Shown piece after piece: positions 2,109 to 44,506 of a stretch of 64,000 bases of DNA. Both the position numbers and the translations under genes were made by a program. Source of the DNA: Candidatus Bathyarchaeota archaeon. Lineage in GTDB: Archaea > Thermoproteota > Bathyarchaeia > Bathyarchaeales > DTEX01. Positions within the stretch are counted from its first letter, which is position 1; each line of letters begins with the position of its first letter. The stretch spans positions 352,001 through 416,000 of the forward strand of contig CAVQNT010000002.1 in the NCBI GenBank assembly GCA_963714275.1, given 5' to 3'. The notes under the pieces were generated by a model. It had not been told where the DNA came from, ran no database searches, and worked only from the letters and a program-made list of their open reading frames with translations.

Positions 2109-2642
2109 CACTATTTTAAACAAGTTTTCAGCTTGATTTCTGGAAATCTGAGACATGAATCCCGCAAGAAGTTTAAAGCTTATGATGGAAAAAACAACGC
2201 TTTCAACTTGGCACATGAAGTCTTGTCATGGAAAGTTTACAGAGCCTTAATCAAGGCTAAGCTCGAACCGTATCTAGGCTTCTTGCATTCGGTTCAATTC
2301 GGAAAACCTAGTCTCGTATGCGATTTCCAAGAATTATACAGATACCTCATAGATGATTTTTTGATTGAACGGAGAACAAGGTTTCACAAAAACGACTTCG
2401 TAGTTGTAACGGACTTTATAATGCATCTTAGAATTGGAAAGAAAATTCATTTATGCGATTATGAAACTAACGAGTTAGCCTGATGGTTTAAACGCACTTT
2501 TCGAAAGAACCGTTGAAATTCCGAGGATAAAGGTAGGCAACAGACAACCCTTGAAACCCTGATTAACGAAGAAGCCTTGTTATTCGCCAAGTATCTGAGA
2601 AATGAACGTGAAACTTGGATTCCTAGAGTGCCTTCACTCTAA
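2109..2642 (+). pseudogene. cas1: Solo Cas1 (casposase-like) C-terminal half; 5'-truncated and frameshifted
   Basis: NNAFNLAHEVL...KAKLEPYLGFLH...PSLVCDFQELYR is the Cas1 catalytic region; tail ETLINEEALLFAKYLRNERETWIPRVPSL*; starts abruptly after TCAGCTAAGCTAGCTAA. Confidence 0.85.
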
Positions 2643-3805: not shown

Positions 3806-3962
3806 AGTTTTTTGTGTGATATATTATACTCTCTCTCATGTGTGTGAGTATATTTTTTCGTATTGTGAGGAGAGAGAGGTAGAGGAAGTAAGAGTAAGAT
3901 AGACAGAGAACATTAATAGTAGTTATAGAAGAAGAAGAAGAAAAGATTAAAATTTAATTCCT
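3806..3962 (+). repeat. Dispersed palindromic site copy (GT/GA-rich arm + GATTAAAATTTAAT)
   Basis: TTTTGTGTG...GTGTGAGTA...GAGAGAG...AAAGATTAAAATTTAATTCC, similar to 37281-37375. Confidence 0.65.
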
Positions 3963-5395: not shown

Positions 5396-5520
5396 AGAGA
5401 GAGAAAGAGAAAGATTAAATTTTAATCCCAAACCCAAACCCATACTTAATTACACCCCTATACTCCAATACTCATACTTACCAATACAAGGCTAAACAAA
5501 CAAACACAAACACACACAAA
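5396..5520 (+). repeat. Dispersed palindromic site, complete form with both arms
   Basis: GAGAAAGAGAAA-GATTAAATTTTAATC-CCAAACCCAAACCC...CAAACAAACACAAACACACAC, bounded by AGCT tracts. Confidence 0.75.
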
Positions 5521-31859: not shown

Positions 31860-31960
31860 GTTCTACTTCCCCTAATTTCGAATTGTATTACTACAACTAT
31901 GTAAGCCTATTCATGAAGTCCTCATATAAGCTCAGGTAGCTACCAAAAACACAGTGTGAA

Positions 31961-32194
31961 TCATTGTTGTCTTTGTCCGCATTCAAGGCAAAAACGTACA
32001 GAAGTTGGTACCTTGCTTTTGCAACTCGGACATATTTTTAACACAAGTTCAGGATGTAACAAGGTTCCGCAAAAATTGCAGTAGTTGGAAATTGAGTAGA
32101 CCTGCAACCTACATTTTGGGCAGATCAAGCAATGCGTATATAGAGGAAGGGGGATCAGAATCAATGCTCCAAGAACCAATTCATCCACACCCAT
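31961..32194 (-). CDS. Double zinc-ribbon protein with TM segment
   Basis: CPKC..CNFCG..CPSC..CLECG. Confidence 0.7.
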   Translation of the reverse strand: MGVDELVLGALILIPLPLYTHCLICPKCRLQVYSISNYCNFCGTLLHPELVLKICPSCKSKVPTSVRFCLECGQRQQ

Positions 32195-32497
32195 GGAGAT
32201 ATATCCGTTCTACTTGTTCTTTTTATTTCTTCATCATTCTAGTTAAGTTAAGTAACTGATAACTATTAGTAATAGATAGCATCGTTTTACGTGTTCTTCG
32301 CAATAACTTTGTCCGCAGATTTCTTGGAGAGAATTGTAAAGACTGCCAATTTATGTTGTTCTTCTCACTTGAGTGGTTCTACAACTGGCTACCATAACTG
32401 GATGTTGGCAAACTGCATCGGAGATAGAAAATTCGCATTTACTTTTTTTAGCTAGGCTGACTTATTTTCTCAGATCAATGTCTATAATTGAAGCCAA

Positions 32498-33776
32498 TTG
32501 ATAAACTTAGCCATCATAGGCGCTGGTGTTGGAGGATGCTCGGCGGCTTATTTTGCCAGCAAATATCTCCCAGATTCAAAGATAACTATCTACGAAGCTA
32601 GTGATAGGGTAGGCGGAAGAGTGCTAACCCTCGAGGAAGGACCTCTGAAGTCTGGAGATGGGAGCCGAATTCTTCAACCCCACGAATAAGACAATCTTAG
32701 GACTCGTTAAGGATAGGGGCTTAAGGGTGAGGAAAATCGAGGAAAGCATGGACTTCGCAATATGGAATGGTTCCGAGATCATCTTCAAGTCAAACCAAGT
32801 GGCTACTCTTACGATGCTAAAACTCTTCATGAGATACAAACTGAACATGTCCAAAATGTTCTTCATCCTCAAAGAGGCAAGACGCCTGGTTAAGTACTTA
32901 TACGAAGGAAACTGGGAGAATCCAAGCGCTGTTGATGAACTCTTCGAGTCTATAGGCCTAGACAAATGGTACAGGAAGCAATTCAATAGTATCCTCAATG
33001 AACGAGGCGTGGACGAAGCATTCATAGACGACGTTGTAACGCCTATCACGAGGATAATCTACTCTCAGAATGCAGACCTAGGAGGATTCGCAGGGCTTAC
33101 ATCAATAATAGGTGTTTACGTTGGACCGTTATACAACCTAGCTGACGGTAACAGCGTTCTTCCAAGGAGTCTCGCAGAGGCATCAAATTCAGAGCTTAGG
33201 CTGGGGCAGAAGGTAGAAAACATCGAAAAAACACCCGACAGTTCTTACAGGGTTTCAGTTGGAGAGAAGACTTCCATTTTTGATGGTGTGATTATTGCGG
33301 TTCCGCTGGAGTTAGCTGGATTTGAGTTCGACGGTGTCTCAATGCGTAAGTGGAAGCCACAGCAGTACAAAAGAGTCTACACGAGGGTTATGCGTGGCTT
33401 CGTTGACTCAGGTTACTTTGGTCTTGAAGAATCAAGAAAATTGCCTCCCATGATACTAACCACTGCGGAGGCAAATCAAATAATTCGCTTCACCATAAAG
33501 CAATCGGCTAATAGCGAGTCCTTGCTGACAATTTCCTCAACTGAGCCGCTCTCCGATGATGTGCTCTACGGGGTTCTCAAGAATGGGAAGACAGTTCTAG
33601 AACACAGTTGGGAAGCAGCATACCCTGCCTTCAAGCCGATGGATAAACTTCCGCCTTCTCGCCTCGATGAAAGGCTCATGTACCTCAACTCCATCGAATC
33701 CGCAGCCTCATCCATGGAGACATCGGCCTTTTCGGCCCTCAATGCCATAAAAATGATGAAACGCGAATTTAGATAA
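32498..33776 (+). CDS. FAD-dependent oxidoreductase, prenylcysteine oxidase/lyase-like; frameshift near 32650
   Basis: GAGVGG...E...VGGR; HSWEAAYP; YLNSIESAASSMETSA. Confidence 0.8.
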
Positions 33777-33902
33777 TCTGATTCATCGAAAGTTCACATT
33801 TGTTCTTAGTTAGCCAGACTGAAGCTCAGCTCACTCGATTGATGAGTTAGTACCACACATTATAGATGTAGTAGTAGTAATTAAGAAAAAAGGAGTGGTG
33901 GT

Positions 33903-34438
33903 TTATTTCCATTTGACGGTGCAGCCGACGGGTTCTGTATTTTGTACCGGGACTTCCTGTCCTTTAAGTATGGCGTCTAAGGCGTCTCTCAAATAATGTC
34001 AGCTGTACATTGTTTGGTTCGTAAACGTTGTCGTCGATTCTGCCGTGATAACGAAGCGTCCGTTTCTTGTCAAAGACGAAGACTTCAGGTGTTCGTTCAG
34101 CTCCGTATGATCTGGCTATGCTTTGGCTTTCGTCTCTTAGATAGGGAAAATTGAAGCCTTTTTCTTTCAGCTCGAACTTTCATGTTCTTGAAACTGTCTT
34201 CAGGATAATTCTTGTCATCGTTGGAGTTAATTGCAACGAGTGCAACTCCTTTGTCTTTGTAGTCTCTCTGCAACTCAACAAACCTTTCCTCGTATGCCTG
34301 AACAGTTGGGCAATGGTTGCAGCTGAACATGACTATGATGATTTTCTTTTCCTTGAAATCTTCCAAGCTGTACGTGTTGCTGTCAACCCCAGGCAACTTG
34401 AAGCCGGGTGCAAGATCTCCAATTTTCAGATCTGCCAT
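33903..34438 (-). CDS. Thioredoxin-fold redoxin (AhpC/TSA-like); frameshifted
   Basis: FSCNHCPTV, AINSND; C-terminal EPVGCTVKWK*. Confidence 0.85.
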
Positions 34439-34545
34439 AATTCATTCTCCACTAAAGAAAAACAGGAAACAGTTAATTAACTTTTTTCTCAATAGTTGAA
34501 GCGAAGGGTTAATTAGGCTTCGTGATGTGCAAGAAGTGACTTTAA

Positions 34546-34973
34546 ATGGAAACCGAAAGTGATGACTATAGACGGATTCGAGCCTCAGTTGAGAAATCGG
34601 TAACAAAATATGCTGAAAGAAGCCTTTTTTTCTGAATCCTGACGACATAGTCGTCAAGAACGTCATTTCAGGACTAGCTAGAAACAAACTGAAATATGGG
34701 TACAACTATTGTCCATGCCGAGAAGTGAAAGGAATCCTAAAAGAGGACGCAAAAAACATCTGCCCATGCCAAACACATAAAGAAGAAATCATACGTCACG
34801 GAACCTGCGAATGCGGACTCTTCGTCAATAAAGTCTTACTTCGAAGCAAAAAAGATTCTCTTTCAAGTTTAGGCAGATTGTTCCCTTCATTAATTGAGGA
34901 TGCAAAAACTCTTCCCTTAGCGAGGTTGTGCCCAACAAATAACTGGTTCTATTGCTTTCTCTTCCTTCAATAG
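34546..34973 (+). CDS. Ferredoxin:thioredoxin reductase catalytic subunit-like; frameshift near 34625
   Basis: YGYNYCPCR...ICPC...GTCECGLFV. Confidence 0.8.
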
Positions 34974-35338
34974 TAGTGCAGCGAAGAATGGTGTTCATTA
35001 ATAAGTCTGTTTCATCTTGCTTTTATAAAACAGGGTTTAAATTTGGCTTATCTCACGTATACAGAAGGCTACATAAGGTGTTAGAAGTATAAGGAAGGCT
35101 GGTTGAAGCATGCCTGTAAATGAAACTGTTATGTTTCTAGCTCAGCTAATTCTTTTTGGATTTCTTCCATATGTTTTTCCATTAATTTTATTTAAGCAGT
35201 CTGGCTCAACTCTTTTGCCCAATATAAACTAGCTAGTCATATACATGTATTTTTGGAGAAAGAGTGTGTTTTTATGTAAAAGTTAGATGAGGGAAAGAAG
35301 AAAAAGTTTATAATCTCATCTCGAAATCCACACAAGTA

Positions 35339-36051
35339 CTAATAACGTTTTGCATTCTTTCTTCCGTAAGGGCAGACATAGACGCAAAGACCGCAGATGC
35401 CTTCTCCCATGGTTTGGGCTCTTTTATCCGTATAATCCTTGCATAAATGAGCTCTAAACCTTAAATCTCTAGGTTCTGAAGGGTCGAAGGGTCTACCGGT
35501 GAACGCTTTTACGGGGCATATTTCAACGCATTCTAGGCAGTTCCCACAACGATTATCCATAGGTCTTCCAGTTCCCAATGGTGCGTCTGTCAACACTGTT
35601 GCCCATCTTACCCTAGGTCCATATTCAGGAGTAATCAGTAGACAGACTTTTACCTATCCAGCCTAGACCAGCAAGGTGAGCTGCAGTTTATGAGAGAATG
35701 CTCCCATCAACCTATTCTGGTTAACCGTTTGAGAAGCTGGGATTTGATAGTCTCTAAAATTGGATTCCTGTATCTTCTTTGCTACTGCAAGAGATGCCCT
35801 GTCAAGGCTGCTATTCACAGAGTTGTACAACCCTCGATACGTGTATATTGCTGATGGCTCTTCATGGCGATAAAGTTCATCCACCACTGCGTCCAACAGT
35901 CTAATACCTATTGAGACAGCCTTAGGAAACGCTACAATATGTTCTCCACCTTGCGCCAAAACGAAATTGCGAGCTTGAATAATGTCTGCTGCCCAAAAAA
36001 GTCTGCTCCCAAAGCCTTAGCAGTGTTTTCTAAATCATTCCGCAGATTCAT
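35339..36051 (-). CDS. Epoxyqueuosine-reductase-like 4Fe-4S protein; frameshifted
   Basis: FSHK, TPEYGPRVRW, CGNCLECVEICP, CGLCVYVCPYG. Confidence 0.82.
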
Positions 36052-36336
36052 AAAACCATCCTGAACTCTCCCGCTGCATCTGGAAGATAAGCTTATCGCC
36101 CACAGCTACTACTGGAAGAAGCCAAAGCTTGTTTTTCCAGTAAACATGATTCTTTTAAGGCGTTTGCAGGGCGAGTGGTTGACCGATAACCTTGAGGAGA
36201 CTTCTGGGTATTCTTCCACCTTTCTATGCAGAGCAAGACCGACTTTAAATGTTAATTACAAATTCTATGTAACCTTTTTCAAGATCTATTGGAAGAACAT
36301 TCTCGTCAAGCATGCCCCAGGCTCTAGCTGTTTGCT

Positions 36337-37164
36337 TCAACTTTTAAGGAAAGCCAAGATGTCTGTTTGAAACTGGCGTTTGTTGTCGTCAAAGGCGTTG
36401 TGTCCAAATCCTTTATAGAGGATCAACTTGGCATTCGGGATCCCCTCAGCTGATTCACGATTCAGATAGAACTTGTCTTCTTCTCCTCCGATGACAAGAG
36501 TGGGCACCTTGATCTCAATCAGTTGCTCCGAAGTGAAGTCATGATTTACCTCCGCCTCGGCTTCTACCAACCCATCCGAGGGGTCGCCAGAGGCGCCAAA
36601 CATGCTCTTTCCAAAGAGCCACATTAACAACTTAAAAACGTACTTTTTTAGTCCCTTGGGATATATCGAGGTAACCATAAAGACAGCTGCCTTTCTCCAT
36701 TTACCCTGACGCGCCAAGTCACCTACGTGCCTTGTCCATTCCTTACCTTCTTCACTCAGGCGATAACCAGTCTCGGCAAGGACTAAGTGGCGAATCAAGT
36801 CGGGATGATCAACAGCAAAGTGATGGGCAATCGGTCCCCCTGACGAAAGTCCTATTATGTCAACCGGCCATGCTAACTCTTCCTTTATCATGGCTGCGTA
36901 GTCGTCGGACATGTCCCGTGTAGAGTACCCAGCAGGTAAACCTCCCCTTCGGCTTACATAATATACCGTGTATTCTTTCGCAAGTTCCTTGAAGCTACCT
37001 GAAACCATTCGAAGTTGGAAGCCAGATGGAGGTTTATGTTCAAAGTCAGGCCCTCCCCCAAAGATGACTACAACTCGTTGCCCGCTTCCCATACGGAAGA
37101 ATGGAAGTCCATTCTTGGAATATCCTGTTGCTGCTTCCGGCTTTGTGCCATGTTCTTTAGTCAT
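36337..37164 (-). CDS. Alpha/beta hydrolase
   Basis: GLSSGG nucleophile elbow, PTLVIGGEED, GFGH. Confidence 0.9.
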   Translation of the reverse strand: MTKEHGTKPEAATGYSKNGLPFFRMGSGQRVVVIFGGGPDFEHKPPSGFQLRMVSGSFKELAKEYTVYYVSRRGGLPAGYSTRDMSDDYAAMIKEELAWPVDIIGLSSGGPIAHHFAVDHPDLIRHLVLAETGYRLSEEGKEWTRHVGDLARQGKWRKAAVFMVTSIYPKGLKKYVFKLLMWLFGKSMFGASGDPSDGLVEAEAEVNHDFTSEQLIEIKVPTLVIGGEEDKFYLNRESAEGIPNAKLILYKGFGHNAFDDNKRQFQTDILAFLKS

Positions 37165-37280
37165 GAATCCACCCACTAATTGCATTATCAACAATCGAGA
37201 AGGTTATCCAAAACATATTTAGACAAAGATACATTTATCTTTTTAAATGTTTAGTCAAGTTTTTATTTTTAGTAATTGTC

Positions 37281-37389
37281 TAGTTTGTGTGTATTTTGTT
37301 TTTCGTGTGAGTAGAGTAGAGAGTATACTGAACAGAAGAGAACGGAACGCGAGAGAGAAAGATTAAATTTTAACCCCAACCCAAACCCC
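37281..37389 (+). repeat. Dispersed palindromic site copy with both arms
   Basis: GAGAGAGAAA-GATTAAATTTTAACC-CCAACCCAAACCCC. Confidence 0.75.
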
Positions 37390-37393
37390 TCGT

Positions 37394-38266
37394 CTAAATA
37401 GGCCGCCACTGCCACACTTCTCCCTTCTGGATGACATGGCCTAGGCCAGGGAAGGGGAAGTGAAAGGCAAGCACTAGAGCCTTCTCCGCCGCGGCTCTGC
37501 TGAGAAGTCGGCGCCTAGTGTTGGCGACTTGTTCGGGTGCAAAGTCGACGGCCGCGCACCAATCTGGCGACTCCAGGTGGATGGGATGGAGCCAAGCGTC
37601 GGAGATGCACAGCAGTTGCTCACCCCCTGAGGAGATGGCCAGCGCCATGTGACCAAGTGTGTGGCCGGGCGCCGCAACGGCTCGGATGCCTGGCACGATC
37701 TCCGTTTCACGGTCAACGAGGTCAAGTCGATCCTGAATCGGCGGAAGGTTTTTGCGTGCGAACGCTATCTGACGCTTTCTGACATGCTCATCGAGCTTCT
37801 GTTCCGCCTGTTCTGAGGTCCAGAAATCCCACTCATCCTTCCACATAATGAAACGGGCCTTAGGGAAAGCCGGCTTGCCCTCGCTGTTGAGGTTCCCGCC
37901 GATGTGGTCTGGATGTCCGTGTGTGAGGATGACCCTGTCGATGTCCTCGGGCGCGACTCCTTCGGCCTTTAGGTTGGGGATGAGTTTACCTGTGGTCTGT
38001 GCAAGGCCATCTGCTCCCGTGTCTACCAGCACCCGATGCCTACCAGTGTTGATCAATAGGCAGATATACGGACTTATCCACTCCACCCACTTTTCTGGCT
38101 GGAGGTTGTGTTCGCGAAGCTTTTGCACTAGACGTTCTTTTGGCGCGTTGACGAAAAGAAGGATTGCAGGCGGTGGGAACATGGGCGGTGTGTACGTCAT
38201 TGTGCCATCGCTGACGGCCATACATTCGAAGGTCCCTACCTTGAACCGATAACTCTCAGAGCTCAT
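37394..38266 (-). CDS. MBL-fold metallo-hydrolase (YtnP/AHL-lactonase-like)
   Basis: THGHPDHIGG, APGHTLGH, AFHFPFPG; visibly more GC-rich than its flanks. Confidence 0.92.
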   Translation of the reverse strand: MSSESYRFKVGTFECMAVSDGTMTYTPPMFPPPAILLFVNAPKERLVQKLREHNLQPEKWVEWISPYICLLINTGRHRVLVDTGADGLAQTTGKLIPNLKAEGVAPEDIDRVILTHGHPDHIGGNLNSEGKPAFPKARFIMWKDEWDFWTSEQAEQKLDEHVRKRQIAFARKNLPPIQDRLDLVDRETEIVPGIRAVAAPGHTLGHMALAISSGGEQLLCISDAWLHPIHLESPDWCAAVDFAPEQVANTRRRLLSRAAAEKALVLAFHFPFPGLGHVIQKGEVWQWRPI

Positions 38267-38470
38267 AGTTTTCCCCTCGCTTCCAGATTCATCGTTACTA
38301 TAGTATAAAGAGTTCAGAACTTTTAATGTTATTGATGTCGAAAAAACAAAGAAAGATTTTCGTGAAGGTCGATTTGGTGAGAACGCTAGGATTGTTTGAA
38401 ATTCAAATCTAGCACGCGCAAGTTTGTTGTCTGATATACATGATACTTGTATAGTTTAGTACACAAGTAC

Positions 38471-38577
38471 GTTAGTTAGTCAGTTAGTCAAAGAGTTAGT
38501 TAGTATAGTCAGTCGTTCCGTCCCGTCAAAAAAGTGTGTGTGGGGGTTAAATTTTAACCCCAAACCCAAACCCAAAC
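38471..38577 (+). repeat. TTAG/TCAG tract followed by palindromic site copy
   Basis: GTTAGTTAGTCAGTTAGTCA...; perfect GGGGTTAAA-T-TTTAACCCC (38543-38561) followed by AAACCCAAACCCAAAC. Confidence 0.78.
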
Positions 38578-38578
38578 A

Positions 38579-39115
38579 CTAGATGTCAGTATTTATAGCA
38601 AACGCAATCTCACGTAGTTTGCTTAGCGCATCCTTGAGGAGTTTTCTATCTACGGTGGGAATAGGTTTGATACTATCTCCAGAATTTGAGAAGTCACAAT
38701 AGAATACTGCCATCCTTGCTTCCCAATCCGCAACACTTTTTACGTCAAAAAATTCTGGGTCGAACACAGTCTCATCAAATGCACCTTCATGAAGTGTTGT
38801 ACACTCGCTAGGAAGAGTCTTAATTGCAATCTCGAATTTTTTTGTGTGGTTTCGGAATTCTTTCTTATATTTAACTTGGACTTTTCCCTTTGAGGGGGTG
38901 TACTGTTTCAATAATAGAATTTTCCCGTACTCTTCTACTGCGTAAGTATAAAGCCCTGTGCATATCGCTTCGTTACCTCCATTATCCAAGAGTTTTTCTG
39001 CGGATTCCAACAATTCTAACACTCCCTGAAGCGTCTCTTGAATGCACTTCTTCCAAACTTCTTCTGTAATCTCTAGAATCTCAACCCAATCTCCTTTATC
39101 ATCCTTTAACATCAT
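38579..39115 (-). CDS. AbiV-family (HEPN) abortive-infection protein
   Basis: LLESAEKLL...YAVEEYGK...FRNHTKK pattern. Confidence 0.7.
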   Translation of the reverse strand: MMLKDDKGDWVEILEITEEVWKKCIQETLQGVLELLESAEKLLDNGGNEAICTGLYTYAVEEYGKILLLKQYTPSKGKVQVKYKKEFRNHTKKFEIAIKTLPSECTTLHEGAFDETVFDPEFFDVKSVADWEARMAVFYCDFSNSGDSIKPIPTVDRKLLKDALSKLREIAFAINTDI

Positions 39116-39288
39116 AGACCCAGCCCTTTATTCATATCATAGATTTCGCTATTCTAAGTTGCCACTCTTTAGTTTCATTTCTTAAATATCTGGCAAATAG
39201 TAACGCTTCCTCATCTATCAAAGATTCTATGGTCTGCTTTTAGCGCGCGCGCTAACTTTACTGCGTACGTATCCGTTTACGTTAATTC

Positions 39289-39723
39289 TCAGTTAGTTTC
39301 TCTCACGGGAGGGGTATATGTAATAATAAGTAATAGTAAGAGAGAAGAAAGAAAGAGAGGGGGAAGGTTGTAAGAATGAGAGAAATAGGGTAGTCGTAGG
39401 TATGCTGAGAGAAAAAGATTAAAATTTAATAGGGTTAGTACCTGATATTTTAATTTAATCTTTGGGTGATAGTGAACCAGTGGCACCATTTTGTTCAGTG
39501 AGCTAATCATTTTGTTCACAGTTCTTCTAACGACTGGGATTACTATGAGACTCGTTGGGAACCCAACTATAAACCCTATTAGAAACCCTCCTGAAAATCT
39601 CAAAGGAAATCCAGAGTCGAATCCAGTCATCAAAATGGTCATCGTAAGAGTCATCGTAAAATCCATTGCCAGTGTCATGAACAACGCGAACAATACTGTT
39701 GAGTATTTCTCATTAATCTTCAT
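39289..39723 (-). CDS. DUF2798-like two-TM protein; ORF reads through the repeat site
   Basis: FALFMTLAM...GF...FPTSLIVIPVVRR; recognisable domain ends near 39495. Confidence 0.65.
   Translation of the reverse strand: MKINEKYSTVLFALFMTLAMDFTMTLTMTILMTGFDSGFPLRFSGGFLIGFIVGFPTSLIVIPVVRRTVNKMISSLNKMVPLVHYHPKIKLKYQVLTLLNFNLFLSAYLRLPYFSHSYNLPPLFLSSLLLLLIITYTPPVRETN
39300..39462 (+). repeat. Dispersed palindromic site copy (purine arm + GATTAAAATTTAAT)
   Basis: Long GA-rich tract, then GAGAGAAAAAGATTAAAATTTAATAGGG...TTTAATCTTT. Confidence 0.65.
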
Positions 39724-40073
39724 AAGGCTCACCCGAGCGTGCCATAATCTATTCATCCTTGCCCTAACTCTCTTTTATATTTTGATAATATGTAATGTTA
39801 AACTTGAGATTAGTGAAAATTGAATGAGTGGGGCTTAGTGTGCTCCCTATGCACACAAAAAAAACACAATTATTAAATGTCAAAAAGGGAACTAGGATTA
39901 AATCATGGAAGATGTGATTAAAATCAATAGGGATAGTAGATGATAAATCAATTTAATCTTAGTTCGGGAGATATCTGGGTCAATCAATCAATTTAATGTG
40001 TTTCCTGTTATTGATATATTGATTTATATGTAAATTCGATTAAAAAATAAAAAATTGAGAGTCGGGTGATTTT

Positions 40074-40514
40074 TTGGGTAGAATGGAAAGGTCAATTGAA
40101 ATTGGGGGACCGCCTGAAAAAATTTGGTCGATGGTTTTTTGGGACAGAGTTCAAGAATGGTTTGACGTAATCAAGAAGGTTGAACGTACTTCTAAAGGTA
40201 AGGATGGGTTAGGTGCAACTGCCCATGTCGTCGGTGAGGCTATGGGAATAAAAGTCGAGTGGGATGCTGAGACCGTAGAATGGAAAGAAAATGAGAAGGT
40301 TGCATGGCGCTCTACTTCTGGAAACTTTTCAATGTCGAGTTCAATGACTTTCAGTCCCATCAAAGACGGAACCAAAGTAACATTTATGATGAACTATGAT
40401 TTGCCCTACTCGGTTCTTGGCAAGATAATCGACAAATTGGGGGTTAGCAGAGAAGTCGGTAAGAGCATTGATAGAGGCATGAAAAAAATAAAAGAAACTG
40501 GTGAGAAAGAATGA
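40074..40514 (+). CDS. SRPBCC (polyketide cyclase/dehydrase-like) protein
   Basis: ERSIEI..PPEKIW, EWKENEKVAW, GTKVT..MNY. Confidence 0.85.
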   Translation: MGRMERSIEIGGPPEKIWSMVFWDRVQEWFDVIKKVERTSKGKDGLGATAHVVGEAMGIKVEWDAETVEWKENEKVAWRSTSGNFSMSSSMTFSPIKDGTKVTFMMNYDLPYSVLGKIIDKLGVSREVGKSIDRGMKKIKETGEKE

Positions 40515-40554
40515 ATTACAGCCTGCGGTTGCTTTCTTTGAATATATGTTTGTG

Positions 40555-41010
40555 TTAATGGAATCCTTTTTCCCATCGATTCACAATGGTGCCCACTATC
40601 GTTTTTTCGAACCATCCCTTTGCTACCTGTTTAGCCATCGATAGCCTATCGTAATACTCCCTATATTGCTGGATTTTTTCTCCGCTGAACTCGTACACGG
40701 TTATCCCAGGTATTTCACGAAATCTTCTACCATCAGACGTAGAGCCCTCATAAACCCATTCGTAGACAGCCCTATTTCCCTTTACCAAAATCCCAATGCC
40801 GGCGTCTCTAATTCTTAACTCCGGAGTTTTCTGAGTCATATAAGTAAAAGTGTGCTTCACCTCCTCCTTGCCTTTGAGTGCTCCCTCAGGTTGAACCCAG
40901 ACCACATCTTCTGTAAGAAAGGATAACACTTTATCCACGTCCCTTCTCGTATAGGCTTCAACAAAATCACGGACTACCCTTGCAATCTTTTCCTCAGACA
41001 TTCTATTCAC
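40555..41010 (-). CDS. NTF2/SnoaL-like protein
   Basis: FVEAY..RDVD...FLTEDVVW, EKIQQYREYYD. Confidence 0.85.
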   Translation of the reverse strand: MNRMSEEKIARVVRDFVEAYTRRDVDKVLSFLTEDVVWVQPEGALKGKEEVKHTFTYMTQKTPELRIRDAGIGILVKGNRAVYEWVYEGSTSDGRRFREIPGITVYEFSGEKIQQYREYYDRLSMAKQVAKGWFEKTIVGTIVNRWEKGFH

Positions 41011-41169
41011 CTCCTAAAACCTTACTGCTAAGCTAATGCATAATTCGTTTTTCTTACTTTTATTGGTTGAGCTATGTTTGTGTGCGGTAAGTTTGTTGAC
41101 CAAACGTCAAATCTTTAATACGACTTGAAATCATGCATGTAATAAAGAAAAAGGGAGGCGAGTTCCATT

Positions 41170-41454
41170 ATGGCAAGCCAATTGGAAAATCAACCTTTCA
41201 AGAACCGAGAACACATAAAAGCTGAGATTAGAAGATGTGCGTGGGCTAATAGCGTTTTTCAGTATTTTAGTTTTCTATTCGCTGCGTTAGGAGTCATTGG
41301 TGAAGCTTTTAACACAACTATTGGTCTACAATCAATTATTTGGCTGCTGCTGGCAATCTTTACAAGTCTGCATGCTATAGTTCCCGCTATGCATCTAGTG
41401 GTGGCTAAGCATTTACTTGGTATAGAAACTGAAAGTAAAAAAAGTAGCGATTGA
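41170..41454 (+). CDS. Small membrane protein
   Basis: Two TM segments; GGGAGG upstream. Confidence 0.65.
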   Translation: MASQLENQPFKNREHIKAEIRRCAWANSVFQYFSFLFAALGVIGEAFNTTIGLQSIIWLLLAIFTSLHAIVPAMHLVVAKHLLGIETESKKSSD

Positions 41455-41582
41455 CAAATTTCTTCATATTACATATGGATAAGTCGTTATCCTGCTCCCT
41501 TGGGAATAGCAAGGCTTCTTCGTTAATTACTAGTGAGCTACTTGCTAGCTAGTAGAGAAAAATTAATTATTTATGGAGTCTT

Positions 41583-41810
41583 TCATCTAATGGTCGATGA
41601 ATGGAGTTTCTTCTTTTCTTTTCGTTTTTTAGACAGTTCTTTGAATAAAGTAAATGCAATGGCAAAAGCAAAAAGTCCCCCGAAAAAAACAACGAGCATT
41701 AATTTGATGTCCCTAACTCCCAAAAACCAGCAGACAATAGCATAAATAGCCAAAATTGTATATGCAACAATCGATTTTCCAATAGCCACTAAACGTTCCT
41801 TTATGTCCAT
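41583..41810 (-). CDS. Small membrane protein
   Basis: Two TM segments, basic tail. Confidence 0.6.
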   Translation of the reverse strand: MDIKERLVAIGKSIVAYTILAIYAIVCWFLGVRDIKLMLVVFFGGLFAFAIAFTLFKELSKKRKEKKKLHSSTIR

Positions 41811-41903
41811 TATTTACCAATCTCTCGTTTCTTTTATTATATTTGGCTTGATTCTCATGTTAGAACATATATTATGAAAATGTTGGGTCAATCAATTTAA
41901 GGT

Positions 41904-42389
41904 TCATGAGGTTCCATATTTTAGGTTTGACCTCCATCCTAAGAACGATTTACCCAATCCTAGTCGCTCTGCATCTCTAGAGAGCTCCTGCGCGCCAGAC
42001 GAGTTCACACCGTACAAGTATTTCAACTCGTTAAAAGCCTTCTCAAAGTTCTCAGCCTCAGACACCTTCAACTGTAACCTTGATTTCAACTCGTGAGAGT
42101 CAAGAGCCTCATCCAGATTCTCTTCGAGTATCTTCATAATCTCCCCTTTAATCTCCCACATATACCTTCCTGCCTTAAAGAAAGGACATTTTGCCCCATA
42201 CCCCTTCAACTCCTCTACACTCTTCAAGAGTTTCTTATAGTCTATGACACTCTTCATTTTCTGTGAGTGCTGAGTAACGTAGGGAACTACACATTCCAAT
42301 TTCTCGTAATTCAAGTGAGTGCACTCAAAACAGTTCTTATCCTTTTCCCCTCCTAGCCTCGCGAAATGTTCCTTAAGATTGCTCTGCAC
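41904..42389 (-). CDS. Hypothetical protein with Cys motif
   Basis: CFECTH...C...CPFF. Confidence 0.55.
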   Translation of the reverse strand: MQSNLKEHFARLGGEKDKNCFECTHLNYEKLECVVPYVTQHSQKMKSVIDYKKLLKSVEELKGYGAKCPFFKAGRYMWEIKGEIMKILEENLDEALDSHELKSRLQLKVSEAENFEKAFNELKYLYGVNSSGAQELSRDAERLGLGKSFLGWRSNLKYGTS

Positions 42390-42659
42390 ATAATCACCTT
42401 GAACGTCGACTCATTTTTTCTCCAACTCCTTAATCCTCTTTTCCTTCAACTCCACCCTCAAAAGAGTTTCTATAAGCTCCTTCATAGTCATTATATTCTT
42501 TATGGCACATATTTTTCCTTTCGTCCACAGGTCTTCACTAGCTTAATTTAATATAAAAGGCGATTAGTAAACCAGTGGCACCCAGTAGACGGTCCTTTCG
42601 CACGCGCTATACAAAGAGCCAGTTATGGTTATTTTATCCCTATTTTTTTAAATAGCTGG

Positions 42660-43808
42660 CTAATTATTGAGGAACCTCCGAAGGCTGCCTGCGACAAACT
42701 CAATTAGAGTCTTGGGAAGTTCGTATATAGTTCTTGCCATAAAGGTCTTATAGTCTTGTTCACTTTTGGAAATGTCGTAAAGCAATCGGGAATAAGTGCT
42801 GCTTCGAGAAGCGAGAATAACTGAGAGTTCGATCATTAGGGGGTTGTAAAACATGTCTCTCTGTTTGCAGCCTTCCATTAGGTCATTACCATATTCTCGT
42901 CTCCAAAGATCATCATAGGATAATATGTTATTTCTAATTATTGTCTCAGCAGCTAACTTTCCCGACCATAATGCATATAAAACGCCCTCACCAGTTATTG
43001 GGTCAACATGCCCTGCGGCGTCTCCAATCAGAATCCAATTTTCTCCAGCACATGGGAGCTTGAAGAAGTTTGGGTCTTTTGCCGAAGGGAGCATGGCAGC
43101 AAATTGCGAGATAACTTTTATTTTTAGACCATAAGAGCGAATAAAATCATCAAGAATTCCCTTCAGAATACTTCCATATCTTAGCTCGCTACCTATACCT
43201 ATACTTGAATGATCGTCTCTTGGGAAGATCCAGATGTAACCAGGTATTCCATCCAAAAACTTCATTGTCGCATATTCTTTTTCAGCGCCTATCGCAAAGT
43301 ATCCATAACCTATTCCGAGATTTTCCCGCGATATGGATCCAACTGTTTTCTTGCGAACAATGCTGTTAACTCCGTCAGCTCCCACAAGTATTTTTGCCTT
43401 CATCAGCCTCTTCTCAGTCTTAATTTCCCAAAAACCTTGTTTCTTTTCGATTTCTGTAACTTTCTCTTTGATCAGTTTTGCACCATTTCCTATCGCCATG
43501 TTCAAAATGCCTTCATCCAAATAGCGTCTCGAAATAATGAATCCTTTTCTTTTACCCTTTGCAATGACTTCTCTGTTCTTTGGAGAGATTATTTTAAAAT
43601 CAGCAGAAATACTTCCCTTTGAAGGAAATTGTTCGATGAACGGAAACTTCTCTATAACCAAAGGCGAAATTCCACCGCCGCAAGGCTTCTCCCTTGGATG
43701 AGAATTGTCAAAAATTATGGAATTAACCCCTTTTGTTGCTAGCTCATAAGCACAATTAGCACCTGCAAGCCCGCCACCAATAATAGCAACAGCCTCGATA
43801 TTTTCCAC
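42660..43808 (-). CDS. Geranylgeranyl-reductase-family FAD oxidoreductase
   Basis: GGGLAG, KPCGGGI, GADGVNS, GDAAGHVDPITGEG. Confidence 0.9.
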   Translation of the reverse strand: MENIEAVAIIGGGLAGANCAYELATKGVNSIIFDNSHPREKPCGGGISPLVIEKFPFIEQFPSKGSISADFKIISPKNREVIAKGKRKGFIISRRYLDEGILNMAIGNGAKLIKEKVTEIEKKQGFWEIKTEKRLMKAKILVGADGVNSIVRKKTVGSISRENLGIGYGYFAIGAEKEYATMKFLDGIPGYIWIFPRDDHSSIGIGSELRYGSILKGILDDFIRSYGLKIKVISQFAAMLPSAKDPNFFKLPCAGENWILIGDAAGHVDPITGEGVLYALWSGKLAAETIIRNNILSYDDLWRREYGNDLMEGCKQRDMFYNPLMIELSVILASRSSTYSRLLYDISKSEQDYKTFMARTIYELPKTLIEFVAGSLRRFLNN

Positions 43809-43941
43809 AAATCTAACTCACGTTCTAAATATTTAAAATAATCAAATGTGCAAGAACGCTAGAATCGCTATGATAAAATATTCTCCATCAACTATCACGT
43901 CAGCAAGAAAAACATGTCTTCGATGAGCTCAGCTAGCTGAC

Positions 43942-44289: not shown

Positions 44290-44506
44290 TTAACAACTTC
44301 ATCCAGAAAATAATCAATCGATTCAAAAAAGGCAGAAGCCTAATTTCATTATGTAACAAAGAGAAGGAAAAATGGAGAAAAGACTGAAAATAGGGTTTTT
44401 ATTAGGATCTTGAGAAAGTCTAGTTTTGGAGTCATAAGCTGATACAATTATCCGAATGAAAATTTATATATGAATCCAAGGCAAATTATGGGCTGAGAAA
44501 AAAGAA

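What the first reader, a model, noticed from the sequence alone, without database searches (positions are those of the whole stretch)
36337..39723. Integron-like array of single-gene cassettes separated by a novel palindromic/(CCCAAA)n site
Seen: four co-oriented (minus-strand), functionally unrelated genes (alpha/beta hydrolase, GC-rich MBL hydrolase, AbiV-like defence gene, DUF2798) are separated by three direct-orientation copies of a non-coding site centred on TTAAA-W-TTTAA (~37368, 38552, 39424). The stop codons of the MBL and AbiV genes lie within about 5 bp of the CCCAAACCC arm. Known: integron cassettes show this one-gene-per-site layout, compositional heterogeneity and defence cargo. 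The sites lack attC RYYYAAC/GTTRRRY ends and no integrase is in the window. Inference: a non-attC cassette system.
Basis: partly seen in the sequence, partly recalled or inferred. Interest (0 to 1): 0.8.

Follow-up and report, generated by a model that had tools for sequence, protein, structure and literature searches.

The report
Cas1 transposon junction sites between genes
The repeated palindromic site between these four genes is real. It is most likely the insertion site and end-repeat of a family of Cas1-carrying mobile elements that have no polymerase gene and that I did not find described, so the gene-by-gene layout probably reflects mobile DNA but not an integron.

Summary
The four minus-strand genes are confirmed: an alpha/beta hydrolase, a GC-rich MBL hydrolase, an AbiV-like gene and a DUF2798 gene. 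Sites 1 and 2 are true copies: an 11-bp core TTAAATTTTAA followed by a CCCC(AAACCC)n arm, 4 and 1 nt from the stop codons. Site 3 shares only the core and a purine-rich left arm, and it copies the 3' end of a tyrosine-integrase gene found elsewhere in the genome.

The site is not local. The genome holds 68 exact cores, 61 of them intergenic. Their arms have a strict polarity: C-rich and G-poor when read away from the core.

Seven elements (four in this genome, three in other genera) are flanked by 13-15-bp direct repeats of the core. They have terminal inverted repeats of about 26 to 60 bp or more. Six of them are 4.4-6.4 kb and carry an apparently intact or split Cas1, with no polymerase-sized ORF. 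One is a 1.25-kb single-gene methyltransferase cassette. Cas1 homologues lie within 0.1-4.3 kb of the motif in 10 further genomes.

Metagenome contigs lose similarity to the window exactly at the window's cores.

The best reading is casposon-like transposons without PolB that target a palindromic 15-mer. The window array would be a patchwork of their junctions. It is cassette-like but not an integron. Rivals are a host regulatory palindrome that is merely targeted, and a tyrosine-recombinase att site.

The parts
36337..37194 (-). Alpha/beta hydrolase gene (285 aa). Together with about 50 nt of its own promoter it behaves as a conserved unit found in many contexts.
   Evidence: Pfam Abhydrolase_1. 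In 21 metagenome contigs at about 76-96% nt identity (20 of them 84-96%), similarity to the window covers only w37244-36343, and at least 6 different flanks are seen.
37195..37360 (-). Spacer holding the hydrolase promoter region and, on the gene strand, a G-poor low-complexity tract of about 100 nt running out from site 1 (TC-type arm).
   Evidence: Sequence. G-poor tracts downstream of cores have median length 17.5 nt and reach 134 nt, against a background median of 0. The tract has no alignable copy elsewhere in the genome.
37361..37375 (+). Site 1: GA-TTAAATTTTAA-CC (core 37363-37373). It has the form of the right-hand junction of a TC-type element: a (GA)nAAAGA arm, then the core, then a C3A3 arm.
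   Evidence: The same junction form occurs at the right end of the C4 Cas1 element. Contigs X1 record 2 and X4 record 26 stop matching at 37374, and X1 record 4 starts matching at 37372.
37374..37389 (+). CCCCAACCCAAACCCC arm (C3A3 type), 4 nt from the MBL stop codon.
   Evidence: Genome-wide, 31 of 36 (CCCAAA) arrays of at least 2 units have a core within 30 nt on their 5' side and 0 have one on their 3' side.
37394..38266 (-). MBL-fold hydrolase (290 aa). Its best NCBIfam resemblance is to AidB-type lactonases, below that model's cut-off. It is GC-rich and horizontally acquired.
   Evidence: Homologues at 53-79% aa identity occur in Chloroflexota, Pirellulales, Bathyarchaeota and other groups. 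None of those 38 loci holds the armed motif; two have an unarmed one-mismatch core.
38530..38577 (+). Site 2: (GT)nGGGGG-TTAAATTTTAA-CCCC(AAACCC)3 (core 38547-38557). It has the same form as the sites into which both TC-type Cas1 elements of this genome are inserted, so it looks like an unoccupied or regenerated target.
   Evidence: Compare the outer flanks of the C4 and C2 elements. DNA hairpin -8.9 kcal/mol, z -1.2. Summed contig depth here reaches about 5800 in run X4, with divergent loose ends on both sides. X3 record 20 and X4 record 29 lose similarity at 38546 and 38556.
38579..39115 (-). AbiV-like (HEPN) abortive-infection gene (178 aa). Its stop codon is 1 nt from the C3A3 arm.
   Evidence: Pfam HEPN_AbiV, NCBIfam TIGR04498. 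Little or no contig cover in the four runs laid.
39408..39465 (+). Site 3: AAAGA-TTAAAATTTAA followed by a second, degenerate inverted half. It is a 58-nt copy of the 3' end of a tyrosine-integrase gene plus its downstream sequence. It has no C3A3 arm.
   Evidence: 97% identical to C5:16106-16163. There the core supplies the stop codon of the integrase ORF. DNA fold -5.5 kcal/mol, z -2.3.
39289..39756 (-). DUF2798 ORF. The domain covers only aa 25-83, and the ORF then reads on through site 3 and the low-complexity arm.
   Evidence: translation.
2133..2483 (+). Cas1 fragment (116 aa, matching the C-terminal part of the family model). It belongs to the same Cas1 family as the intact element-borne copies.
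   Evidence: Pfam Cas_Cas1 E 1.5e-15. 69-77% nt identity to the Cas1 genes on C7, C4 and C2. Listed among the genome's Cas1 matches.
3947..3957 (+). A further armed core: (GAA)nAAAGA-TTAAAATTTAA-TTCCTTCCTTCC.
5415..5425 (+). A further armed core: (GA)nAAAGA-TTAAATTTTAA-TCCC(AAACCC)2, a right-junction form.

Best explanation
WHAT IT IS. The three sites are copies of a lineage-wide 13-15-bp AT-rich palindrome, (G)A-TTAAAWTTTAA-T(C). Its flanks are C-rich and G-poor low-complexity 'arms' when read away from the core.

SHOWN.
- This palindrome is the direct repeat that flanks a family of 4.4-6.4-kb elements.
- Those elements have long terminal inverted repeats, which are the arms.
- They carry an apparently intact or split Cas1 gene and no polymerase-sized ORF.
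- At least one Cas1-less single-gene element has the same ends.

INFERRED.
- Cas1 acts as a casposase-type integrase. It joins the purine-rich 3' ends of the element (...GA) to the two edges of the palindrome.
- Host repair then fills the staggered gaps and duplicates the palindrome.
- Each insertion therefore produces two new targets. Later insertions, and rearrangements between cores, pile up gene-sized segments separated by cores.
- The window's run abhydrolase | MBL | AbiV | DUF2798 is such a patchwork. Sites 1 and 3 have the form of an element's right junction, and site 2 has the form of an empty or regenerated target.
- The window segments themselves are decayed or rearranged. They are not clean elements.
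For: 1. GENOME-WIDE AND POLAR. There are 68 exact cores, 61 of them intergenic. 59 of 68 have a C-free left arm, a G-free right arm, or both. 31 of 36 CCCAAA arrays have the core on their 5' side and 0 on their 3' side. G makes up 5-13 of 136 bases at each of the 12 flank positions.

2. DISCRETE ELEMENTS. 5 of 43 adjacent core pairs have inner arms that are inverted repeats at or above the 99th percentile of random pairs (0.4 expected); no outer arms reach that level. Over all pairs within 12 kb the count is 7 of 124 (1.2 expected).

3. DIRECT REPEATS AND INVERTED ENDS. The direct repeats are 15 bp in 5 of 7 elements, 14 bp in one and 13 bp in one. They include asymmetric repeats (GACTAAATTTTAATC twice; GCTTAAATTTTAACC twice), which cannot be inverted repeats. 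Terminal inverted repeats match at 60 of 60 and 59 of 60 positions in two elements.

4. CAS1 CONTENT. Six of the seven carry Cas1 of 344-352 aa (five intact, one split). It scores 160 bits against TIGR00287, cut-off 71.7. The alignment to PDB 4n06 shows the E, H, D and E positions present (residue roles from PMC9939771, section 8). The largest ORF in any element is 352 aa. No Cas2 and no Y1 transposase were found in the genome.

5. COHERENT FAMILIES ACROSS GENERA. TC-type elements (G000 C4 and C2, G371, G284) share Cas1 at 67-74% identity plus two more ORFs. C3A3-type elements (G000 C7, G410) share Cas1 at 59% plus two ORFs.

6. LINKAGE ACROSS GENOMES. A hand tally gives Cas1 homologues (E <= 1e-30) in 22 of 53 motif-positive genomes, against 32 of 348 motif-negative ones. 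Cas1 and the motif lie on the same contig within 0.1-4.3 kb in 10 genomes other than G000, and within 9 kb in one more. Both listings are truncated.

7. BREAKS IN THE WINDOW ITSELF. Contigs from three samples lose similarity exactly at the cores on both sides of the MBL segment and to the right of the abhydrolase segment.

8. PARALOGUE BOUNDARIES fall at the core.

9. MATCH TO KNOWN CASPOSASES. Duplications are 13 bp for family 1 (with A and T as the end bases), about 14 bp for family 2, and 15 bp for A. boonei in vitro. Known targets include a palindrome, and tandem insertions are known (passages read in PMC8464041, PMC9939771, PMC6563490).
Against: - No activity, excision product or true empty orthologous site was seen. 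Cas1 is implicated only by linkage and by being the only recognisable integrase in the elements.
- The core is palindromic apart from its centre, so calling the repeats direct rather than inverted rests on the centre base and on two asymmetric cases.
- Only 5-7 of roughly 40-120 core pairs form clean elements. Most cores are orphans.
- Adjacent cores are direct in 24 cases and inverted in 19, so there is no bias.
- The MBL and AbiV segments of the window lack convincing inverted ends (11 of 24 and 8 of 24).
- Of the 21 metagenome contigs with the abhydrolase gene, 17 have no core at all, and there similarity ends at the promoter and stop codon, not at a core.
- Some genomes have many motifs but no close Cas1 (G360 with 20 copies, G187 with 9), and 32 genomes have the Cas1 without the strict 22-nt motif.
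- Of the 10 further Cas1 loci fetched from other genomes, only 3 show a core pair with matching inverted ends, and 2 have no core at all.
- By sequence the Cas1 is nearer a CRISPR Cas1 (4n06, E 4e-24) than the M. mazei casposase (6opm, E 4e-11).
- Related genomes are not independent observations.
- The ORF calls are crude.
Confidence: 0.6

Rival explanations
1. The palindrome is a host cis-element: a bidirectional promoter or terminator, or a protein-binding or nucleoid site. It is common in intergenic DNA of this archaeal class. The Cas1 elements merely use it as their insertion target, as some bacterial insertion sequences target REP sequences. On this reading the window's sites are ordinary gene punctuation.
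For: - The AAAGA + TTAAAT part of the motif resembles the BRE/TATA-like pattern AAAAG-N1-2-YTTAAAT that I read by eye upstream of the genome's tRNA genes.
- In other genera the site is a full hairpin-forming palindrome (-12.5 kcal/mol, z -3.2). It often lies 15-33 nt after stop codons, between convergent genes.
- In G000, converging genes lie closer to the core (median about 100-116 nt) than genes that lead away from it (about 235-268 nt).
- Both TC-type Cas1 elements in G000 sit in the same kind of pre-existing site.
Against: - There is no orientation rule. The gene-orientation classes are -- 19, -+ 15, ++ 14 and +- 13.
- C3A3 arms face 20 converging and 18 leaving genes. Neither a promoter nor a terminator explains both divergent and convergent positions.
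- Cores cluster in islands and are absent from 435 kb of contig C2. They are absent or rare in most relatives: 348 of 401 genomes of the class have none. That does not fit a general transcription signal.
- Site 1 has no hairpin.
- Arms pair across segments, not across the core.
- No RNA data could be obtained.
Confidence: 0.18
2. The cores are att-type crossover sites of a tyrosine recombinase, with inverted arm-binding sites around an AAAWTTT overlap. Segments are exchanged, inverted or integrated by site-specific recombination, in an integron-like or shufflon-like way.
For: - Site 3 is a copy of the 3' end of a tyrosine-integrase gene whose stop codon lies inside the core.
- The genome has 18 Phage_integrase matches, 14 of them over the family cut-off.
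- Hybrid arms at most sites are what attL and attR junctions would look like.
- The roughly 13-7-13 palindromic layout resembles simple recombinase sites (recalled knowledge, not tested here).
Against: - None of the seven clean elements encodes an integrase that Pfam detects.
- They have long terminal inverted repeats of about 26 to 60 bp or more, which integrase-borne elements do not need.
- The duplication length of 13-15 bp matches casposases (PMC8464041, PMC9939771).
- No integrase lies in the window. The nearest (C2:431079) is about 40 kb from the array.
- There is no attC-like structure and no single array with attI and Pc.
Confidence: 0.08
3. The site is a REP- or MITE-like selfish palindrome that spreads on its own, or through an enzyme not identified here. 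Its nearness to Cas1 genes would reflect only shared residence in mobile-DNA islands.
For: - Copy number per genome is patchy, from 0 to 41, across the class.
- The sites are intergenic and independent of gene orientation.
- Depth in wetland and sediment metagenomes is very high.
- Some genomes have many motifs and no close Cas1.
- REP-like palindromes have been reported across archaea (passages read in PMC12306157).
Against: - No Y1 or RAYT-type transposase was found in G000; the same search hit 6 of 14 control genomes.
- The arms are of at least four unrelated sequence types and vary in length, unlike copies of a single MITE.
- The arms extend into inverted repeats of 60 bp or more that bound multi-gene elements.
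- Cas1 lies within about 0.1-4.3 kb of one of only 1-13 motif copies in 10 other genomes.
Confidence: 0.1
4. The sites are a chance or assembly artefact: low-complexity joins made by the assembler between unrelated contigs.
For: - Arms are microsatellite-like.
- Short-read contigs from other samples end at the sites.
Against: - The same architecture is found in independent assemblies of at least 52 other genomes of the class, with 1 control hit in all.
- Several contigs bridge cores (X4 record 29, X1 record 4).
- Long perfect inverted repeats and direct repeats are present.
- 0 of 100 shuffles reach the observed count in the window.
Confidence: 0.02

Closest known systems
Casposons (Cas1-encoding self-synthesising transposons, families 1-4)
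   Same: A Cas1 homologue is the only recognisable integrase. The elements have terminal inverted repeats. They are flanked by a 13-15-bp direct repeat, matching the 13 bp reported for family 1, about 14 bp for family 2 and 15 bp for A. boonei in vitro. Insertion is sequence-specific, and a palindromic target is known for A. boonei. Tandem insertion into the same target is known. The Cas1 lacks a C-terminal HTH extension by length, as in family 1. (passages read in PMC9939771, PMC8464041, PMC6563490.)
   Different: There is no family B polymerase, nor any ORF longer than 352 aa. The elements are only 4.4-6.4 kb, against roughly 6-20 kb for casposons. The target is a short palindrome present in dozens of copies per genome, not a single tRNA or ef-2 site. 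Element ends are microsatellite-like and of several types. Cas1-less derivatives carrying a single gene exist. By sequence the Cas1 is nearer a CRISPR Cas1 than the one solved casposase.
Integron gene cassettes (IntI, attI, attC)
   Same: Gene-sized modules of unrelated function are punctuated by a repeated site. Cargo includes defence genes and genes acquired from other organisms. Composition varies from module to module.
   Different: There is no IntI, attI or Pc. The sites are 11-15-bp perfect palindromes with low-complexity arms, not 55-140-bp imperfect attC hairpins. They are scattered genome-wide in all orientations. The modules keep their own promoters. The elements have terminal inverted repeats and target duplications.
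REP/BIME elements with RAYT transposases, and insertion sequences that target REPs
   Same: Short extragenic palindromes occur in many copies and are lineage-specific. The putative mobilising gene is flanked by inverted copies, as in REPtrons (recalled). Mobile elements insert into the palindromes.
   Different: No Y1/RAYT gene was found. The organism is an archaeon. The core is AT-rich with polar arms rather than a GC-rich stem with a GTAG head.
CRISPR arrays (repeat duplication by Cas1-Cas2)
   Same: A Cas1-family integrase appears to duplicate a short, partly palindromic sequence at each insertion, giving a repeat-insert-repeat pattern.
   Different: The inserts are kilobase-long elements with their own inverted ends, not 30-40-bp spacers. 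The repeat is 13-15 bp. There is no Cas2, no leader and no effector genes. The order is not regular.

Membership tests
Integron | IntI-type tyrosine recombinase next to the array | tested here: not met
   None of the 18 PF00589 matches lies in the window. The nearest is C2:431079, about 40 kb from the array.
Integron | attC sites: 55-140-bp imperfect palindromes with RYYYAAC ... GTTRRRY ends | tested here: not met
   The core is an 11-15-bp perfect palindrome with low-complexity arms. Site 1 does not fold. GTTAAAT occurs in site 2 only as part of the palindrome.
Integron | One array of promoterless, co-oriented cassettes read from Pc | tested here: not met
   Sites lie on at least 9 of 10 contigs and in all gene-orientation classes. 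The abhydrolase keeps about 50 nt of conserved promoter in other contexts. Spacers are 170-300 nt.
Casposon | Cas1 homologue with catalytic residues, not in a CRISPR-cas locus | tested here: met
   TIGR00287 scores 160 and 139 bits, cut-off 71.7. E, H, D and E are present in the alignment to 4n06. No Cas2 was found in the genome. The neighbouring ORFs match no cas family in Pfam. In the window itself there is only a fragment.
Casposon | Family B DNA polymerase inside the element | tested here: not met
   The largest ORF in the six Cas1 elements is 352 aa, and none matches DNA_pol_B in Pfam. The genome's PF00136 matches lie elsewhere; the nearest is 9 kb from a Cas1 and outside the repeat-bounded element.
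Casposon | Terminal inverted repeats | tested here: met
   Matches of 60 of 60 and 59 of 60 in two elements. The others are long but offset by differing numbers of microsatellite units. 5 of 43 adjacent core pairs exceed the 99th percentile, 0.4 expected.
Casposon | Target-site duplication of about 13-15 bp at a specific target | tested here: met
   Direct repeats are 15 bp in 5 elements, 14 bp in 1 and 13 bp in 1, always containing TTAAAWTTTAA or a one-mismatch variant. The palindromic sequence leaves the exact length ambiguous.
Casposon | Integration catalysed by the Cas1 | not testable with these tools
   This needs an in vitro or in vivo assay.
REP/RAYT | Y1 (RAYT) transposase in the genome | tested here: not met
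   PF01797 gave 0 matches in G000 (91% complete); the same search hit 6 of 14 control genomes.
Archaeal BRE/TATA promoter | Purine-rich BRE plus TATA box about 25 nt upstream of a transcript start | tested here: inconclusive
   The sequence resembles the pattern I read by eye in tRNA upstreams. However, genes leading away lie 72-878 nt off, and many sites face gene 3' ends. No RNA run was listed.
CRISPR array | Regular repeats of 24-47 bp with 30-40-bp spacers, plus cas2 and effector genes | tested here: not met
   Core spacing ranges from 0.26 to over 10 kb. No Cas2 was found.

The most novel reading that the evidence does not exclude
In this archaeal class a stand-alone Cas1 builds arrays of kilobase-long, gene-carrying inserts. 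It does so by repeatedly integrating polymerase-less elements, and their Cas1-less single-gene derivatives, into a 13-15-bp palindrome that it duplicates each time.

This would be a living 'repeat-insert-repeat' system that sits between casposons and CRISPR adaptation. In effect it would be a Cas1-driven gene-cassette platform that captures foreign genes such as the MBL hydrolase and defence genes such as AbiV.
Probability: 0.3. Interest if true: 0.92.

Novelty: new variant of a known kind. Interest (0 to 1): 0.78.

Why it matters
All casposons described in the papers I could read carry a family B polymerase and use one or a few targets per genome. A compact Cas1 element without a polymerase would widen what Cas1 integrases are known to do. 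Here its multi-copy palindromic target is duplicated at every insertion, and it has single-gene non-autonomous relatives. That would give a natural system close to the proposed step from transposon to CRISPR repeat duplication.

It would also explain how these sediment archaea shuffle and acquire single genes, including defence genes. Finally, it offers a short, defined target and end sequence for biochemical tests of a Cas1 integrase that lacks an HTH domain.

Tried and rejected
- EXPRESSION. No listed holder of the stretch is on record as RNA (two RNA-type runs were listed only as same-study additions, holding next to none of its words), so promoter or terminator use could not be tested.
- RFAM. 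At E <= 1, window 35500-40500 gave only a sub-threshold C/D-box hit inside the hydrolase gene.
- DNA SEARCH OF RELATIVES. Searching window 30000-46000 in 25 relatives found no syntenic region, only scattered gene-level hits. An orthologous occupied-versus-empty comparison was therefore not possible.
- DOES THE MOTIF TRAVEL WITH THE MBL GENE? Rejected: 0 of 38 homologous loci have the armed motif, and two have an unarmed one-mismatch core.
- DOES THE MOTIF TRAVEL WITH THE ABHYDROLASE GENE? Mostly rejected: 17 of 21 contigs have no core.
- A COHERENT CASPOSON SHARED BY THE GENOME'S CAS1 LOCI. At DNA level only the Cas1 gene aligns. Protein-level comparison later recovered shared accessory ORFs.
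- A SIMPLE ARM-TYPE RULE FOR GENE ORIENTATION was rejected.
- DIRECT-ORIENTATION BIAS OF NEIGHBOURING CORES. None: 24 direct against 19 inverted.
- HOMOLOGY OF THE WINDOW'S G-POOR ARMS to other TC-type ends. No alignable match. The likeness is in composition only.
- A DECAYED 6-KB CAS1 ELEMENT around the window's Cas1 fragment (C2:349965-355947). Its inner arms do not pass the threshold.
- THE JOINT 37325 -> 38542 in run X4 (one contig, 27 nt on its shorter side). It is too weak to count as a precise loss of the MBL segment.

Full report
1. THE OBSERVATION

- 36337-37194, alpha/beta hydrolase.
- 37394-38266, MBL-fold hydrolase.
- 38579-39115, HEPN/AbiV.
- 39289-39756, DUF2798. The domain covers only aa 25-83, and the ORF then reads on through site 3.

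The MBL gene stands out in composition. Its GC is 0.54-0.60 against 0.37-0.42 on either side, and the change falls at about the start and stop codons.

The three sites are at the stated centres.
- Site 1 reads gagagagaaaga-TTAAATTTTAA-ccccaacccaaacccc.
- Site 2 reads gtgtgtggggg-TTAAATTTTAA-ccccaaacccaaacccaaac.
- These two share 17 nt in direct orientation. Their arms end 4 nt and 1 nt from the MBL and AbiV stop codons.
- Site 3 reads gagaaaaaga-TTAAAATTTAA-tagggttag. It has the core with the other centre base and the purine-rich left arm, but no CCCAAA arm.

The motif is not chance. In the window it occurs 4 times against 0.36 expected, and 0 of 100 shuffles reach 4.

2. THE SITE IS GENOME-WIDE AND HAS A STRICT ANATOMY

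The window is C2:352001-416000 of a 2.64-Mb, 10-contig assembly. It is an archaeon to judge by its genes (archaemetzincin, signal-peptide peptidase and others). Bathyarchaeia is my inference from the record titles of MBL homologues and the sediment and wetland holders.

Counts for the core TTAAAWTTTAA:
- It occurs 68 times, against 2-8 for other palindromes of the same composition.
- 61 of the 68 are intergenic by crude ORF calls.
- The flanking gene orientations are -- 19, -+ 15, ++ 14 and +- 13.

The arms:
- 59 of 68 cores have a C-free, G-containing left arm, a G-free, C-containing right arm, or both; 31 have both.
- G is found at only 5-13 of 136 half-sites at each of the 12 flanking positions. 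The first two flank bases are mostly T and C, giving the extended consensus GA-core-TC.
- The arms are of several types: (CCCAAA)n, (TC)n/TCTTTC, TGCACACAC and TTCCTTCC.
- The polarity is absolute for the first type. 31 of 36 arrays have a core within 30 nt on their 5' side and none on their 3' side.
- G-poor tracts run on for up to 134 nt.

Cores cluster in islands. There are 20 on the 221-kb contig C7 and none between 481 and 916 kb of C2.

3. NOT A PLAIN PROMOTER OR TERMINATOR

The AAAGA-TTAAAT part resembles the BRE/TATA-like pattern that I read by eye upstream of the genome's tRNA genes. In other genera the site is a full hairpin-forming palindrome that often follows stop codons.

However, arm type does not predict the orientation of the neighbouring gene. 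C3A3 arms face 20 converging and 18 leaving genes; TC arms face 13 and 17. Both divergent and convergent intergenic regions hold sites. Site 1 has no hairpin. No Rfam family matches. No holder of the stretch on record as RNA was listed, so transcription could not be examined.

4. DISTRIBUTION IN RELATIVES

The 22-nt motif (core plus a C3A3 arm, up to 1 mismatch) occurs 29 times in G000. It occurs in 6 of 41 genomes of the relatives search, G000 included. Across the class it occurs in 53 of 401 genomes, with 1 control hit in all. It is concentrated in one genus of another family (11 of 12 genomes, up to 41 copies) and reaches 11 copies in another order.

In the four metagenome runs laid on the window, the 35 nt of site 2 reach a summed contig depth of about 5800. 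The loose ends on both sides diverge from one another. The element is therefore multi-copy in these communities.

5. THE LINK TO CAS1

G000 has no Y1 transposase and no Cas2. It has seven Cas1 matches in six loci:
- Two intact 344-aa genes, on C7 and C4.
- One split gene, on C2.
- Three fragments, one of them at window 2133-2483.

Five of the six loci lie within 0.3-1.5 kb of an exact core.

Pairs of cores flank Cas1. The sequence just inside the two cores is an inverted repeat. Among 43 adjacent core pairs, 5 have inner arms at or above the 99th percentile of random pairs (0.4 expected), and no outer arms do. Among all 124 pairs within 12 kb the count is 7 (1.2 expected).

The same structure is present around Cas1 homologues in three other genera, G371, G410 and G284.

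For the seven clean elements:
- The direct repeat is 15 bp in five, 14 bp in one and 13 bp in one.
- Two of the repeats are asymmetric (GACTAAATTTTAATC and GCTTAAATTTTAACC, each present twice in the same orientation). They are therefore direct repeats, not inverted ones.
- In all six Cas1 elements the centre base is the same at both ends.
- Terminal inverted repeats match at 60 of 60 and 59 of 60 positions in two elements. In the others they continue after offsets caused by different numbers of microsatellite units.

The six Cas1 elements are 4.4-6.4 kb, and their largest ORF is 352 aa. They therefore hold no family B polymerase. The genome's DNA_pol_B matches lie elsewhere.

The elements fall into two families.
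- TC-type ends: Cas1 is 67-74% identical between copies, and ORFs of about 180 aa and 110 aa and a Zn-ribbon ORF are shared.
- C3A3-type ends: Cas1 is 59% identical, and two other ORFs are shared.
- Cargo includes Fic/DOC, a ClpP-like protease and a beta-helix protein.

The Cas1 passes the general Cas1 model (160 bits against a 71.7 cut-off). It keeps the E, H, D and E positions in its alignment with PDB 4n06.

Two further elements have the same ends but no Cas1.
- C3:76612-77863 is 1.25 kb. It has inverted ends of about 26 bp, a 13-bp direct repeat ATTAAATTTTAAT, and a single SAM-methyltransferase gene. It is a true single-gene cassette.
- A 5.4-kb element on C6 has 195-bp inverted ends that finish in core plus a C3A3 arm. 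It carries RHH, SSB-like, Alba and TFIIE-alpha-like genes.

Across genomes (hand tally, both truncated), close Cas1 homologues (E <= 1e-30) occur in 22 of 53 motif-positive genomes and in 32 of 348 motif-negative ones. In 10 genomes other than G000 a Cas1 homologue lies 0.1-4.3 kb from one of the few motif copies on the same contig, and in one more it lies 9 kb away. Related genomes are not independent observations, so I give no P value.

6. ARMS PAIR ACROSS SEGMENTS

In G000 the two arms of one site are of the same type in only 4 of 79 sites (13.2 expected; 0.04% of permutations were that low). The arms that face each other across a segment are of the same type in 14 of 43 pairs (8.1 expected; 1.2% of permutations were that high).

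This fits segments that bring their own inverted ends and sit back to back at shared cores. It explains the polarity rule: every arm is an element end read inward from a duplicated target.

Both TC-type Cas1 elements of G000 are inserted in a site of the form (GT)nGGGGA-core-TCCC(AAACCC)n. Window site 2 has just this form. Sites 1 and 3 have the form of an element's right junction, (GA)nAAAGA-core.

7. EVIDENCE AT THE WINDOW ITSELF

Contigs from other samples lose similarity to the window at the cores.
- X1 record 2 and X4 record 26 carry the abhydrolase and its upstream spacer as far as 37374, then 17 and 65 unmatched letters.
- X1 record 4 carries 182 unmatched letters and then the arm plus the MBL 3' end from 37372, with 1 mismatch in 191.
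- X3 record 20 and X4 record 29 carry the spacer upstream of MBL as far as 38546 and 38556, then 109 and 448 unmatched letters.
- AbiV has little or no cover in the four runs.
- These are short assembly contigs aligned at 88% or better. Length variation in the arms could end some alignments early. The 182- and 448-letter cases are the robust ones.

The abhydrolase gene occurs in 21 metagenome contigs at about 76-96% nt identity (20 of them at 84-96%). Similarity to the window is limited to the ORF plus up to 50 nt of promoter, and at least six different flanks are seen. Only 4 of the 21 contigs hold a core; in two of them a CCCAAA arm follows the stop codon directly. Gene-by-gene reshuffling is therefore real, but it does not always involve the core.

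MBL homologues at 53-79% aa identity are spread over several bacterial phyla and archaea, and none of their loci holds the armed motif. The gene is foreign and the sites belong to the host lineage.

Paralogue comparisons inside G000 also place homology boundaries at the core.
- Three GNAT genes share 245 nt of upstream sequence starting exactly at the core, and one of them has only a degenerate core.
- A small basic ORF has the core plus arm in two copies and lacks it in a third.
- In a third family the TC tract exists without a core in three copies, and in the fourth it is joined to G-arm plus core exactly at its first base.

Site 3, with window 41569-42449, copies the end of an integrase-bearing region on C5. 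In the window the two pieces are separated by 2.1 kb that holds the DUF2798, SRPBCC and SnoaL genes.

8. MECHANISM

Shown:
- The anatomy of target duplication plus inverted ends.
- The Cas1 content of the elements and the absence of a polymerase.
- Conservation of the two element families across genera.
- The linkage between Cas1 and the motif.
- The breaks of similarity at the window's cores.

Inferred:
- Cas1 joins the element's 3' ends (...GA) to the two edges of the palindrome.
- Host enzymes fill the gaps, which duplicates 13-15 bp.
- The duplicated cores are reused. Tandem casposon insertion is known (PMC6563490, passages read).
- Over time the elements decay, lose Cas1 or exchange parts at cores. 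This leaves arrays such as the one in the window.

The window's own MBL and AbiV segments do not have convincing inverted ends (11 of 24 and 8 of 24). That these two genes were moved as cassettes by this route is therefore the weakest link; I put it at about even odds.

9. COMPARISON WITH WHAT IS KNOWN

Casposons are defined by cas1 plus polB islands with terminal inverted repeats and target duplications. The review I read says that a polymerase gene is conserved in all identified casposons (PMC9939771; abstract, section 8 and passages).

Reported duplications are 13 bp for family 1, where the casposase has no HTH domain and A and T are the end bases of the duplicated target. They are about 14 bp for family 2 and 15 bp for A. 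boonei in vitro (PMC8464041 and PMC9939771, passages).

The present elements meet the Cas1, inverted-repeat, duplication and site-specificity criteria. They fail the polymerase criterion. I therefore call them casposon-like, not casposons.

They fail every defining feature of integrons that I could test, and they have no RAYT gene.

My searches found no description of polymerase-less Cas1 elements, or of this palindrome, in Bathyarchaeia. The searches were made, and I read passages of PMC13343696, PMC8730458 and PMC12306157. One paper notes that Asgard archaea encode diverse Cas1 homologues 'possibly associated with novel MGE' (PMC8730458, passage). I did not read the primary paper behind that remark (CRISPR J 2020), and I opened no supplements, so an earlier mention cannot be ruled out.

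10. VERDICT

The integron analogy is right about modularity and mobility but wrong about mechanism and organisation. The finding points to a Cas1-based insertion system with a multi-copy palindromic target that appears to be undescribed. I rate it a new variant of a known kind, of high interest.

Noticed in passing
window 17-2011, 5644-6210, 12013-12684, 28117-28827, 52895-53248, 59563-62211: Many genes in the window look truncated or split. Examples are a serpin in two ORFs, MBL fragments, a partial aldo-keto reductase, a partial LarA N-terminus, a partial nitroreductase and a cation ATPase in pieces. Either the island is rich in pseudogenes or the assembly carries frameshifts.
   Followed up: no
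window 39408-39465 and 41569-42449; C5:15139-17002: Two pieces that are adjacent on C5, next to a 415-aa tyrosine-integrase gene, are 2.1 kb apart in the window. The DUF2798, SRPBCC (40074-40514), SnoaL (40555-41010) and a 94-aa ORF lie between them. The break is at site 3.
   Followed up: partly
G000 C6:469843-475259 (L075 3843-9259): A 5.4-kb element with 195-bp inverted ends. Each end holds a small basic ORF followed by the core and a CCCAAA arm. It carries RHH, SSB-like OB-fold, Alba and TFIIE-alpha-like genes. The Alba plus SSB-like pair also sits beside the Cas1 fragment on C9.
   Followed up: partly
L004-L041 (homologues of window 37394-38266): The MBL-fold hydrolase has homologues at 53-79% aa identity in Dehalococcoidia, Anaerolineae, Pirellulales, Syntrophobacterales, Aerophobetes, Bathyarchaeota, Methanoregula and others. 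It looks like a widely exchanged sediment gene.
   Followed up: partly
L046 80-176 versus window 40052-40147; upstream flanks in L042, L043, L046-L048, L054: In several metagenome contigs the abhydrolase gene directly follows an SRPBCC-like gene. That gene is related to the one that lies 3 kb away on the other strand in the window.
   Followed up: no
genome-wide, e.g. C2:357500, C2:946200, C6:469780, C7:217700: A second recurrent palindromic word of the form GCTAGCT(S)AGCTAGC often appears where the G-poor tracts end.
   Followed up: no
G000 C7:153900-155123: A 758-aa family B polymerase ORF lies 9 kb from the intact Cas1 on C7, outside the repeat-bounded 4.4-kb element. I did not examine whether a larger composite element exists.
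   Followed up: no
G000 C5:136338-136415: ARAGORN reports a tRNA with a four-base anticodon (gcgg) and an undetermined amino acid.
   Followed up: no
G000 as a whole: At 2.64 Mb the genome is larger than its same-genus and same-family relatives (1.1-2.2 Mb, rounded). It has 18 Phage_integrase matches and 7 Cas1 matches. The extra DNA may be largely mobile islands.
   Followed up: no
G000 C2:298500-303500, C10:12765-14683, C6:364609-367290: A mosaic of repeated gene-sized modules occurs in a different order at different loci (A-B-C on C2, B-C-A on C10). One module boundary falls exactly at a core.
   Followed up: partly
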